Source: Octopus vulgaris
Taxonomy: Eukaryota
NCBI GenBank assembly: GCA_951406725.2
Contig: OX597818.1
Coordinates: 124,744,001 to 124,808,000 of the forward strand
Reading direction: 5' to 3'
Length of the DNA: 64,000 bases
A program made the position numbers and the translations under genes. The notes under the pieces were generated by a model. That model made no database searches. It saw only the letters and a program-made list of their open reading frames with translations, and was not told the origin of the DNA. Shown in pieces: positions 11,901 to 58,080 of the stretch (positions are counted from its first letter, which is position 1; each line of letters begins with the position of its first letter).

Positions 11901-12036
11901 ATGTGAGTACACACAAATATGATTGATTCCTGTCTAGATGTGTTCCTTTGGAGGGAAAAATGGAGATGAATGTTTTCAGAACATTCTAAAACATCTTTCA
12001 GAATGGTTCACTTTTGAATAATGACTACTTTTGAGT

Positions 12037-12386
12037 GAGTAAATAACATTTTGCAGCGTGGAAAGGTGTTTGTAAGCCATTTAAGAAACACACAAAAGCC
12101 GTTCGATTCACTTCAACATTTAAGTTTAATTTGTCAAAATATTTTCGTCGCTTTAAGACTGCGACCTGTTCACTGACAAAGCAGCACGGATTTTTGTCAG
12201 TGAACAGGTAGCGGTCTTAAAGCGACGAAAATATTTTGAGAAATTAAACTTAAATGTTGAAGTGAATCGAACGGCTTTTGTGTGTTTCTTAAATGGCTTA
12301 CAAACACCTTCCACGCTGCAATTGTTTACGTTCCAGCTCACGATCTCAGATCAAATCACTTGCTATGCAAGTACATCTCCGTAAAT
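12037..12386. mobile_element. Foldback element with variant hammerheads in both arms
   Basis: Arms of about 130 bp (ttgcagcgtggaaagg..cactgacaaa / tttgtcagtg..ccttccacgctgcaa); 16-bp TSD atgactacttttgagt (12021-12036 and 12387-12402). A second copy lies at about 53907-54236. Confidence 0.85.
12130..12180 (-). ncRNA. Hammerhead ribozyme variant with G3-C8 core
   Basis: Minus strand reads UUUGUCA-GUGAACA-G-GUCGC-agucuuaaa-GCGAC-GAAA-AUAUUU-UGACAAA. It has a 7-bp stem I, a 5-bp stem II and a palindromic short stem III. Confidence 0.65.
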
Positions 12387-12818
12387 ATGACTACTTTTGA
12401 GTAACATTTCATTTCAATTTCAAAATTTGCTTGATTTTCTTTCTTTCATTCAGTCAGTTGTTACTTTTATTAGATAGATAGATAAAATCCACCACCCCCG
12501 ATTTTCAGTTTACTCATATTTATACACGTGGAGGGTATTCTTTATCGCAGGTGCTGACTAGTCAACTGAATATACATATACAACAAAAAATGTGTGGTCA
12601 CAACACAGATTTGTTACTTATTTCAGTCATTAGACTGCAGCCATGCTGGAGCGTCGAAATGAATAACTTTTAGTCAAATAAATCAAACCCAGTACATTTT
12701 TTTAAGCCTGGTATTTTATCGATCTTTTTTTGCCGAACTGCTAAGTTACAGATATAAGCAACCAATACCAGTTGTCAAGTAGTGGTGGGACCAAACATAG
12801 ACACACACATAAATATAT

Positions 12819-27282: not shown

Positions 27283-27960
<678 letters not shown>

Positions 27961-53906: not shown

Positions 53907-54236
53907 ATTACGGAGATGTACTTGCATAGCAAGTGACTTGATCTGAGATCGTGTGCTGGAACGAAAACAATTTCAGCATGGAAGGTGTTTATAAGCCATT
54001 TAAGAAACACACAAAAGCCGTTCGATTCACTTCAACATTTAAATTAAATTTGTCAAAATATTTTCGTCGCTTTAAGAACGCGACCTGTTCGCAGCACGGA
54101 TTTTGTCAGTGAACAGGTCGCGGTCTTAAAGCGACAAAAATATTTTGACAAATTAAATTTAAATGTTGAAGTGAATCGAACAGCTTTTGTGTGTTTCTTA
54201 AATGGCTCACAAACACCTTCCACGCTGCAATTGTTA
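53907..54236. mobile_element. Second copy of the G3-C8 hammerhead foldback element
   Basis: Same arms as 12051-12322. Plus arm 54102-54152 reads UUUGUCA-GUGAACA-G-GUCGC..GCGAC-AAAAAUAUUU-UGACAAA (G12 lost). The minus arm is truncated but keeps GAAA. Confidence 0.85.
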
Positions 54237-57200
54237 TATATATTACTAGCAGTATCGCCCGGCGTTGCTCAGGTTTGTAAGGGAAATAACTATAAAGCAT
54301 TTTTAGAGACTTATAGCCAAAAAAATAGCCAAAAAAATGGGGGGAAAATGATGGTAAATTTTTTTGAGAGTTAAAAAAGGTGGAGTTTCGTTCCCTAGAC
54401 AGTCTGTGGTTTGTGTTTCTGATTCTCGACCCCATGTCGAATTTATCGATTTTTTTCAGAACTGGGGGAACTTTTCAAAATTTTCGCTGCGTTAGTTTTG
54501 AATTATGACATTGGGCTATGTGTGTGTCAAGTTTCATCAGAATCGGTTGAAAGCCGTGGTAGAGAGTGAGGGTACGAGAAAACAGACACACAGAAAACGC
54601 ACAGACAAACTGCCGTTTATATAGAGATAGATGTTTGAAGAAAAAGACAGGATGGCCATGAGCAGAATGCCCTTCAGTGAGACTTGAAAATTAACAAACA
54701 ACAACACTAACTTCAGCTACTAAACTTTGCAGATGCACAGATTTGGGCAAGTACTATTTACTATTTTACTTGTTTGTCATTTGACTGCGGCCATGCTGGA
54801 GCACCGCCTTTAATCGAGCAACTCGACCCCGGGACTTATTCTTTTGTAAGCCCAGTACTTATTCTATCGGTCTCTTTTGCCGAACCGCTAAGTAACGGGG
54901 ACATAAACACACCAGCATCGATTGTCAAGCAATGCTAGGGGGACAAACACACACACGCATATATATACATATTTACGACGGGCTTCTTTCAGTTTCCGTC
55001 TACCAAATCCACTCACAAGGCTTTGGTCGGCCCGAGGCTATAGTAGAAGACACTTGCCCAATGTGCCACGCAATCAGACTGAACCCGGAACCATGTGGTT
55101 GGTAAACAAGCTACTTACCACACAGCCACTCCTGTGCCTAACCCTAACCCTAGAGAAGAGAACTTAGGAGTAGGGAACTTTTTTTTTTTTTTTGGAAAAT
55201 AGGGATTAAATGTTGATGATGAAGATGACAATGAAAGTACGGGGATATAGATGTATTGGCACTGAACCAGATTTGTATAAGTATTCATTATGTTTCCATC
55301 TCCTATTTAATCCATTATATAATCAAATGAGATATTTAACCCAATAATAATTAATGAAAAAGTTAAAAGAGAGTAGGGAGATATTCTTTCTCTCTATAGG
55401 TGTGGTCAGTGTAAAAAGTGCATGGCCTAGTGGTTTAACATATTGCACTTACAATCGTATGGTCATCGGTTCATTTTCTAGATCAGTCACTTTGAGCAAA
55501 GCATTTTTTTTTTAATTTCATTTTGCCCCACCCTACTCAGCTGAAAGTGAGCACCAGCACAATGCTGGCACAGTCCTCTCCCCACCCCCACTTCCACTCT
55601 AATTTCCACATCTTGGATGTTGGAATGTGACAACTGGATGCAGCTTTTCAGATGCTGGTGTTTTGGTGTGGCTGACTGAACATTGGAACTTGTTTTGGTG
55701 ACAGTACTTTTTGGCACCAGAGGCACACACACACACACACACACACACACATGCAAGCAAGCACACAAAAATATACATATACAGATGAGAGAGAGACAGG
55801 CAGACAAACATTACAATCCATTAACTGAACTTGAGTGACATTAACACTTTCTCTCTCCTCATACATATAAACAGAGAGAAAAGTCAGACGGAAAGAGAGA
55901 GGGAAAGAGAGAGAGAGAATGTGAGGATGAGGAGAGTATTTCTTTATTCACCACTAGCAGTATCACCCGGCATTGCTCGGGTTTGTAAGGGAAATAACTA
56001 TAAAGCATTTTTAGAGAGTTATAGCTAAAAAATAACAAAAAAAATGCATTAAAGATGGGAAAAAAATGGTAAATTTTTTTTTAAATCGTTGACTCATCGT
56101 AGACATTTTTAGAGAGTTACTTCCCTTATATAATAGCGAAAAAATGCATTGAAATGGAAAAAAAGATGGTAAATTATTTTTAAAATTGTAGACTCATCGT
56201 AGACGCGCGCTAATACCCAGAAAGGCTCGATATGAATCACGACTATAAGATACCGGGTTTTGGTTAAACTGCACCGCAAAATGTGGGAGTAGTTAGGAAT
56301 CTAAATCGTAGGAGACAGATGCACAACCTTACTTTTATATATAAAGATAAGGTTGAGAAAAAGAGGGGACAAAACAAACGTTGGGGTCAGGGTATCGAAT
56401 GAGACGAAATGTATGAATGAGTAAAACATTAAACCATTTAATGTTAAATAAATCAGCAATGCATCAAGGGTGCCAAAACAGGGAGACCAAAACAGCTGCA
56501 GCAAACCTATTTCTTTACTACCCACAAGGGGCTAAACATAGAGGGGACAAACAAGGACAGAGGAATGGATTAAGTTGATTATATCGACCCCAGTGCGTAA
56601 CTGGTACTTACTTAATCGACCCCGAAAGGATGAAAGGCAAAGTCGACCTCGGCGGAATTTGAACTCAGAACGTAGCGGCAGACGAAATACGGCTACGCAT
56701 TTCGCCCGGCGTGCCAACGTTTCCGCCAGCTCACCGCCACTGCATCAAACCATCTCTTACTCCTTAGCTATAATGCTGGATCGAGTATAGGGGTACTGAG
56801 AAGCTGTCTACGTCTGCTAGTGAACCACATTAGGCACCTAAAGCAATAACAACTAAAAGCATGGAACACATAAAAAAAAAAAACTCATGCTCATTTGTGA
56901 GTGATGGCTGGGCCTGTTTATGTGAGGCCAGAAATTGAATAGGTTTTTTACACTGACTATTGTAACACTAACAGAAATTGCTTGCGTTGCTATGTAAACA
57001 ATCGTGTGAAAGTATTTCTATTGCTGTGTGGCTTTCACATAACTGGTTTTGTTTTCATGTATTGCCCATAACTAAGCCGGCATGTATATCCAAATAAACT
57101 GATAAAAGGACAAAAATTTTCAATAACAAAGAGAAAAAAAAAATGAATAAAGGTATAGTAATCATTAATAAAACAATTTGGACTTTCTAACTTCATTAAT

Positions 57201-57458: not shown

Positions 57459-57522
<64 letters not shown>

Positions 57523-57669
57523 CATAGATAGATATATATATGGATATATATATATATATATAGATATATATATATATATATATATATAGATAGATATATA
57601 TATAGATAGATATATATATACATATATATATACATATATATATATAGATAAATATATATATACATATAT

Positions 57670-57706
<37 letters not shown>

Positions 57707-57785
57707 TAGATATATATATAGATATATATATACATATATATACATATATATATATAGATAGATATATATATACATATATAGATAT

Positions 57786-57828
<43 letters not shown>

Positions 57829-57868
57829 TACAGATAGATATATATATATATATATATATAGATATATA
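57341..57868. repeat. Compound (TA)n/(GATA)n microsatellite, about 530 bp
   Basis: Directly visible. Confidence 0.97.
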
Positions 57869-58080
57869 TTTAGCTATTGCATAATTATGGTCTATTTTGA
57901 GAAAACACACACAACTCTGCTGCTTGCCTCAGGTCTGCGTGTGTGGTTGATAAGTTTCACATCCACTTCATGGTTGAGTGGTTGATAATAGATGATGGCA
58001 GCCAGCTTAAAAAACAAAACGAAACAAAAAAAAAAAAAACTGCTTCAGTAATATGCAAAATAGAAACCACTTCTAGTAGA

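What the first reader, a model, noticed from the sequence alone, without database searches (positions are those of the whole stretch)
12130..12244. Natural hammerhead ribozyme family with the C3-G8 tertiary pair swapped to G3-C8 (core GUGAACA)
Seen: a foldback family (12037-12386 and 53907-54236) has arms reading UUUGUCA-GUGAACA-G-GUCGC-loop-GCGAC-GAAA-AUAUUU-UGACAAA. That gives a 7-bp stem I, 5-bp stem II, GAAA and a palindromic mini stem III, all in hammerhead topology. The canonical CUGANGA is replaced by GUGAACA in all three arms that retain this segment. Established: positions 3 and 8 form a Watson-Crick tertiary pair in the active hammerhead, and engineered C3G/G8C double swaps restore activity lost by single mutants. 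Inference: the double change is compensatory, so the fold was under selection. Searches fixed on CUGANGA would miss this family. The triplet would be UUU and stem III would need dimerisation, so activity is not guaranteed. I cannot tell whether this family has already been reported.
Basis: partly seen in the sequence, partly recalled or inferred. Interest (0 to 1): 0.8.

Follow-up and report, generated by a model that had tools for sequence, protein, structure and literature searches.

The report
Swapped-core hammerhead in octopus Penelope retrotransposon
Thousands of copies of an octopus jumping gene carry a hammerhead-shaped RNA motif in which two paired core letters are swapped relative to the sister element; it is likely a natural version of a swap I found in print only as a lab mutant, but whether it cuts itself is untested.

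Summary
Observation confirmed, context corrected. The foldback is a short insertion of a Penelope-like retrotransposon (PLE): pseudo-LTR, inverted 5' piece, fixed tail and target-site duplication. I found the full-length parent (RT plus GIY-YIG) with the motif in both pLTRs. The genome is Octopus vulgaris by a 100% protein match. The motif has 7,244 pattern matches; 95 of the first 100 listed are G3-C8, and none of the 22 C3 copies has G8. A sister PLE (57% amino-acid identity) has C3-G8 at the homologous place, and farther relatives have U3-A8 or C3-G8. Stems covary, so the swap is a real compensatory change in a PLE minimal hammerhead. Cleavage is untested. Only 1 of 70 copies starts at the predicted cut, foldback copies would fold into one long hairpin, and only one of the window's three arms is intact. 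My searches found G3-C8 in print only as an engineered rescue, but three key papers were not held. The scan noted G3-C8 swaps before on other DNA (phages, a protist element, other PLE tails), and I found two phage candidates. Verdict: new variant of a known kind.

The parts
12051..12385 (+). Short insertion of a Penelope-like element: inverted 5' piece (about 12051-12180) joined to the direct pLTR part and tail (about 12181-12385)
   Evidence: the same sequence is the pLTR/ORF start of full-length element L239
12130..12180 (-). Intact G3-C8 minimal type I hammerhead motif. Stem I 12180-12174/12136-12130; core 12173-12167; extra G 12166; stem II 12165-12161/12151-12147; GAAA 12146-12143; U16.1 12138; U17 12137. 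Predicted cut between 12137 and 12136
12193..12243 (+). Second arm of the motif, G3 at 12200; damaged (stem II A at 12210, stem I G at 12240)
12293..12385 (+). First 31 codons of the PLE ORF (MAYKHL...); the copy ends at the family's fixed 3' tail end
   Evidence: in L239 the frame continues into the ORF; 65 of 70 copies end within one base of this point
12021..12036 (+). Left target-site duplication (16-bp core)
   Evidence: Sequence
12387..12402 (+). Right target-site duplication
   Evidence: Sequence
53908..54235 (-). Second short insertion of the same element; its direct arm is truncated inside the core (lacks G3-U4)
54102..54152 (+). Motif in the inverted piece of copy 2, G3 at 54109; damaged by G12A at 54136

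Best explanation
This is the hammerhead motif in the pseudo-LTR of an octopus Penelope-like retrotransposon, with its 3-8 core pair swapped from C-G to G-C; it likely still works as a slow self-cutting RNA that would need a partner copy or the element's protein to fold. Shown: position in both pLTRs, sense to the ORF, 56 nt from predicted cut to ATG; homology to a C3-G8 sister; stem covariation; most copies span the cut site. Inferred: transcription starts about 16 nt before stem I (TATA-like box near -30, 5' ends pile up there, often with an extra G that fits copying of a cap). The element's protein likely starts reverse transcription about 90 nt into the ORF, which would give the fixed tail. 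Snap-back or template switching at the 5' end would give the foldback. The two motifs of a read-through transcript, 4.26 kb apart, could pair through AAUAUU and cut after U17 on a minority of molecules. U17 would weaken the G3-C17 trap that a swap creates in C17 hammerheads. The window's own copies are likely inert fossils.
For: Parent element with RT, C-terminal GIY-YIG and two pLTRs. Sister family at 57% identity has C3 in 97 and G8 in 100 of the first 100 listed of 4,542 matches, and a fully canonical CUGAUGA subfamily. Relatives at 33-35% have U3-A8 (L260) or C3-G8 (L261, L262). On a 7-sequence alignment the 3-8 pair is CG:3, GC:3, UA:1; 96.3% of cells pair and 7 of 12 pairs change on both sides, while slid controls pair at 49% or less. 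Outside the motif and the ORF start, blastn found no pLTR similarity to the sister, so the core was kept while its surroundings diverged. Common within-family variants fall at 6 of 9 loop II columns and 1 of 42 stem/core columns. No core variant reaches 8% in runs of four coded organisms. Engineered C3G/G8C rescues activity, including in a PLE hammerhead that needs its protein (PMC11167929; PMC9901934).
Against: No cleavage data. Only 1 of 70 copies begins at the predicted cut, and microhomology explains it; 27 of 70 begin upstream of the motif. The modelled active dimer (-23.8 kcal/mol) is less stable than two monomers (-13.0 each) or an over-paired dimer (-25.6), and the monomer's best fold pairs G3 with U17. 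The commonest sister form has lost A9 (A9 in only 10 of the first 100) yet has intact ORFs, so catalysis may be dispensable in this clade. Stem/core versus flanking pLTR variation within the family is not significant (1/42 vs 14/157, p 0.2). The loop II columns are not independent events, and 8 of the 13 arms with the one stem change share flanks. The alignment holds 7 hand-picked, related sequences. In the anole PLE, hammerhead mutants did not affect insertion in vitro and no RNA-seq ends mapped to the cut.
Confidence: 0.68

Rival explanations
1. A true hammerhead descendant whose swap was once selected, but which no longer cuts. The fold is now kept for another role (protein binding, translation or promoter control in the 5' leader) or is decaying slowly.
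For: Copies derive from uncut RNA. The commonest sister subfamily carries A9C. A small lineage with a core deletion exists (L250, L253). G3.U17 mis-pairing is in the best fold. PLE hammerhead catalysis was dispensable in vitro.
Against: All other core letters are kept in both main subfamilies and in four coded organisms; loop II tolerates substitutions and an indel while the core does not.
Confidence: 0.27
2. Two chance decay mutations in a dead hammerhead, amplified by a successful master copy.
For: Conservation among genomic copies only reflects descent; within-family selection against flanks is not significant.
Against: My arithmetic: two random changes among about 13 core positions hit exactly 3 and 8 and restore a Watson-Crick pair about 0.4% of the time (1/78 x 1/3). 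The rest of the core survived a branch long enough to erase flanking similarity.
Confidence: 0.04
3. A MITE/foldback DNA transposon or a miRNA-like hairpin with a chance hammerhead look.
For: Long inverted arms; weak Rfam hit to mir-9424.
Against: The inversion point varies, many copies have no inverted arm, the 3' end is fixed and continues in frame into an RT-endonuclease ORF. The mir-9424 hit is 30.3 bits against a gathering score of 90.
Confidence: 0.01

Closest known systems
Minimal type I hammerheads (min-HHR) in pLTRs of metazoan Penelope-like elements (Cervera and de la Pena 2014, PMC4209133)
   Same: Location in both pLTRs, extra nucleotide after A9, G10.1-C11.1, short palindromic stem III, predicted dimer; U17 in 24 of the 56 listed motifs and a UUU triplet in the Crassostrea one (my count); nearby opposite-strand pairs also described.
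   Different: None of the 56 listed motifs has G3 (53 C3, 3 U3); the covariation reported is U3-A8. Here G3-C8 is fixed in a family with over 7,000 motif matches.
Natural U3-A8 core variants (Perreault et al. 2011, PMC3088659; Schistosoma PLEs, PMC4209133)
   Same: Natural covariation of the same 3-8 tertiary pair.
   Different: U3-A8 needs two transitions with a U.G intermediate; G3-C8 needs two transversions through a C.C or G.G mismatch (inference). Section 8 of Perreault names only U3-A8.
Engineered C3G/G8C double mutants (anole Poseidon PAc, PMC11167929; pairwise mutagenesis, PMC9901934)
   Same: Identical swap; partial rescue of cleavage; in PAc the ribozyme needs the element's protein and tails mark internal RT starts.
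   Different: Laboratory mutants, not natural alleles; PAc's motif overlaps its start codon, this one lies upstream of the ORF.
C-terminal EN+ PLEs with a CX2-5CxxC linker (Neptune/Nematis type; Craig et al. 2021, PMC8557442)
   Same: RT, CX3CxxC linker, GIY-YIG with CCHH-type residues, partial tandems, inverted 5' copies, tail, (TA)n target bias.
   Different: DKG reads DKS here; only 19% identity to the Pfam-positive PLE of the same genome; clade not placed on a tree.

Membership tests
PLE minimal type I hammerhead | Watson-Crick pair between positions 3 and 8 | tested here: met
   G-C here; CG:3, GC:3, UA:1 across related families
PLE minimal type I hammerhead | Literal consensus letters C3 and G8 (CUGANGA) | tested here: not met
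   0 of 22 C3 copies have G8 among 7,244 matches; hence filed as a variant
PLE minimal type I hammerhead | U4 G5 A6, A9, G12 A13 A14, A15.1-U16.1, H17 | tested here: met
   132 of 188 arms keep core, GAAA, U-H and both stems
PLE minimal type I hammerhead | Stems I and II with covariation; G10.1-C11.1; extra nucleotide after A9 | tested here: met
   (7 sequences, related, hand-picked)
PLE minimal type I hammerhead | Palindromic 15-16 segment allowing a dimer | tested here: met
   AAUAUU; the dimer is nested and can be built but is not the lowest-energy state
PLE minimal type I hammerhead | Located in pLTR, sense to the ORF | tested here: met
   L239, both pLTRs
PLE minimal type I hammerhead | Self-cleavage after N17 | not testable with these tools
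   Only contigs were available, which cannot show RNA ends; genomic 5' ends give no support
Rfam hammerhead families | Match to a covariance model | tested here: inconclusive
   No hit, but 4 canonical sister copies were missed too, so the miss is not due to the swap
Penelope-like element, C-terminal EN+ | Single ORF with RT and C-terminal GIY-YIG | tested here: met
   Pfam RVT_1 in 5 and GIY-YIG in 7 of 26 aligned homologues, none in the element's own protein; hhalign 99.4% to a GIY-YIG-positive PLE; atlas neighbours
Penelope-like element, C-terminal EN+ | pLTRs, inverted 5'-truncated copies, tail, target-site duplications | tested here: met
   direct repeat of 8 nt or more in 58 of 70 copies, many of them (TA)n-confounded
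Neptune/Nematis clade | Phylogenetic placement with reference RTs | not tested
   Linker motif seen; no reference sequences in hand
Non-LTR retrozyme | Tandem non-coding units, each with a hammerhead, no ORF | tested here: not met
   Dispersed copies of an ORF-bearing parent; one short local tandem (L052)
MITE / foldback DNA transposon | Fixed terminal inverted repeats at both ends | tested here: not met
   Variable inversion, solo copies, fixed asymmetric tail

The most novel reading that the evidence does not exclude
The first animal hammerhead family with G3-C8 fixed and catalytically active: a recently mobile PLE crossed a two-transversion valley, helped by U17, and with its sister lineages (C3-G8, U3-A8, A9C) forms a natural allelic series for asking what PLE hammerheads do. 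Descriptors fixed on CUGANGA or UUGANAA would be missing a recurrent third core class in animals and phages.
Probability: 0.4. Interest if true: 0.6.

Novelty: new variant of a known kind. Interest (0 to 1): 0.44.

Why it matters
It would supply comparative-sequence support from an animal genome for the full interchangeability of the 3-8 tertiary pair, which I found in print only for mutants (G-C) and natural U-A. It would justify freeing positions 3 and 8 in hammerhead searches. One genome holds PLE families with G3-C8, C3-G8, C3-G8 plus A9C, and U3-A8 cores, which makes the open question of why PLEs keep hammerheads testable side by side. It is not a new mechanism or class.

Tried and rejected
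Rfam scan: no hammerhead hit, uninformative because the canonical sister is missed too. GIY-YIG family search (150 of 6,136 candidates scored) returned other PLE families; the one match to this element among 30 loci (L089) is an insertion. L199 looked like a two-pLTR element but is a local duplication. Pfam found nothing in the element's own protein; the PDB profile gave only weak bacterial RT hits. Idea that copies start at the cut site: rejected. Idea that the 5' pile-up is a spliced junction: no upstream exon found in 22 starts examined, so a start site is preferred but not shown. Idea that U17 is shared with the sister by descent: rejected, the canonical sister subfamily has C17. Idea that G3 requires U17: not general, both phage candidates have C17. 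L259, L263, L264 and L265 gave no motif (3 of 7 metagenome loci did, and L261/L262 are near-identical with a G12A change). The RNA label of run X19 is a guess and contigs show no ends, so expression is not shown. Lunse 2017, Hammann 2012 and Przybilski and Hammann 2007 were not held; the figure-only parts of Cervera 2014 and the supplements of other papers were not seen and could hold a G3-C8 example.

Full report
Observation. The window holds two copies of a 330-bp foldback, 12051-12385 (+) and 53908-54235 (-). Minus 12180-12130 is a complete type I hammerhead pattern with core GUGAACA, an extra G, 7-bp stem I, 5-bp stem II, GAAA, palindromic AAUAUU and U17. The other two arms with GUGAACA are damaged (stem II and stem I changes at 12210 and 12240; G12A at 54136). 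The intact arm folds at z -2.24, and a strict descriptor hit 0 of 3000 shuffles. Read as a whole, either copy folds into one hairpin of -193 to -233 kcal/mol that removes the hammerhead stems.

Family. The genome has 2.8 Gb; a DNA search gave 2,614 candidates, 40 scored. A pattern with positions 3, 7 and 8 free has 7,244 matches and 0 in the reversed control; of the first 100 listed, 93 are GUGAACA and 95 are G3+C8. Twenty-two matches have C3 and none of them G8. Among 188 aligned arms from my loci, 179 have G3+C8 and 132 keep the whole pattern. Contigs of four runs from four coded organisms show no difference at 8% or more inside the motif.

What the element is. In 70 copies chosen by their tail (the first 69 of 4,945 matches plus one), the 3' end falls within one base of the same place in 65. 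The 5' end is variable, with 27 at the first five positions of the reference, and inverted pieces vary in length. A direct repeat of 8 nt or more flanks 58 of 70, many confounded by (TA)n targets. Following the upstream sequence led to copies with an RT-endonuclease ORF and to a full-length element, L239, with the motif in both pLTRs 4.26 kb apart. Its ORF begins 56 nt after the predicted cut and runs through the tail end. Homologues carry RVT_1 (5 of 26) and GIY-YIG (7 of 26). The profile aligns at 99.4% probability to a Pfam-positive PLE of the same genome and has a CX3CxxC linker. These are the features of C-terminal EN+ PLEs in Craig et al. 2021 (PMC8557442; passages; one supplement searched). 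A protein named Octopus vulgaris matches the genome at 100%.

Is the swap compensatory? That protein belongs to a sister PLE, 57% identical to this one. At the homologous place upstream of an alignable ORF start, its pLTR has a hammerhead with C3-G8. Of the first 100 listed of 4,542 matches, 97 have C3 and 100 have G8; 10 have A9, and 9 of these are fully canonical CUGAUGA, with C17 in most fetched copies. Three of 7 metagenome relatives at 33-35% show a motif: U3-A8 in L260, C3-G8 in the near-identical L261 and L262. On 7 hand-picked sequences the 3-8 pair is CG:3, GC:3, UA:1; 7 of 12 pairs change on both sides, 96.3% of cells pair, and slid controls reach 49% at most. The sequences are related, so the shuffle counts are not probabilities. 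Blastn finds no other pLTR similarity to the sister except the ORF start. Within the family, common variants sit at 6 of 9 loop II columns and 1 of 42 stem/core columns, a U-A to U.G change. The loop columns are not independent, and the contrast with flanks (14 of 157) is not significant, p 0.2. I put the compensatory reading at about 0.95.

How it likely works. Inferred: a TATA-like run lies about 30 nt before the pile-up of 5' ends, and several copies have an extra G there, as expected from copying a capped RNA; no spliced junction was found in 22 starts. In the anole PLE, reverse transcription starts inside the RNA 111-118 nt into the ORF and defines the tail. Its hammerhead cuts only with the protein, C3G/G8C partly rescues it, and cleavage is not needed for insertion in vitro (PMC11167929; parts 1-2 of 4 read). 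The tail here lies about 90 nt into the ORF, and short copies outnumber ORF sequence by roughly 500- to 1000-fold in summed contig depth, a rough measure. So most copies come from uncut pLTR RNA: only 1 of 70 starts at the cut, by microhomology. Cleavage, if any, would need a dimer through AAUAUU or the protein. The modelled dimer (-23.8 kcal/mol) is less stable than two monomers, and min-HHRs cut poorly even as dimers (PMC4209133; parts 1-2 of 4 and supplement parts 1-2 of 3 read). A 3-17 pair is a proposed trap, and a G3-C8 variant was more active with G17 than with C17 (PMC3884650; passages). Here G3 meets U17, a weaker wobble that still appears in the best fold. Against activity: the commonest sister form has A9C, and two copies share a core deletion. 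I put present activity at about 0.55-0.6.

Comparison with print. Natural U3-A8 is known (PMC3088659, section 8 read; PMC4209133). None of the 56 motifs in Cervera's Figure S3 has G3, and 24 have U17 (my count). G3-C8 appears as an engineered rescue (PMC11167929; PMC9901934 passages; PMC8495972 passage). Ten full-text searches showed no natural G3-C8 in the listings and passages I saw, and no octopus hammerhead family of this kind. I also saw passages of PMC6155905, PMC10085705, PMC13725137 and PMC6765202, and part 1 of 5 of bioRxiv 10.64898/2026.07.22.740005. Lunse 2017, Hammann 2012 and Przybilski 2007 were not held, so novelty is not certain. Rfam misses both this motif and canonical sister copies.

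Elsewhere. In viral contigs one G3-C8 pattern gave 55 loci; 4 passed a closure test and 2 look convincing by eye (L277, L281). The canonical pattern gave 76 of 80 tested, out of 125 or more returned. The swap thus seems to recur rarely in nature. Earlier unchecked notes of this scan report G3-C8 swaps in phages and behind other PLE-type genes, none for this sequence or genome; they are leads, not support.

Verdict. A real, high-copy, outgroup-supported G3-C8 variant of the known PLE hammerhead, activity untested. New variant of a known kind, interest 0.44.

Noticed in passing
G000 sister PLE, L254:1331-1375 and L446-L465: Its commonest subfamily has A9C (A9 in only 10 of the first 100 of 4,542 matches) and some copies also U17, yet it has intact 1312-aa ORFs; a canonical subfamily coexists.
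   Followed up: partly
L068, L070, L071, L074, L079, L085, L091-L094 (3' ends): Another abundant PLE family of this genome (781-aa ORF) carries a U3-A8 minimal hammerhead with a CAUG palindrome.
   Followed up: partly
L277:81-110 (-) and L281:81-111 (-), viral contigs: Two phage-collection motifs look like complete type I hammerheads with G3-C8 and C17.
   Followed up: partly
L107, L037, L112, L119, L121, L127 (5' ends): Many copies start with an extra G before a site about 30 nt downstream of a TATA-like run; fits copying of an RNA cap, though the site also resembles a 3' splice site.
   Followed up: partly
L104, L106, L138-L141, L143, L158: Eight copies share both junctions and flanks, so one insertion was probably amplified inside another repeat.
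   Followed up: no
L250:1778-1938 and L253:1089-1249: Two copies share a 3-nt deletion in the core and an internal deletion running into the ORF; a small defective lineage or a duplication.
   Followed up: partly
L052: Local tandem of about 63-nt units, each holding the 5' half of the motif, apparently from repeated template switching.
   Followed up: no
window 54244-54290: Copy 2 abuts another repeat whose start I recall as Helitron-like; not tested.
   Followed up: no
window 27336-27932 and 57477-57877: Another long foldback repeat family in the window.
   Followed up: no
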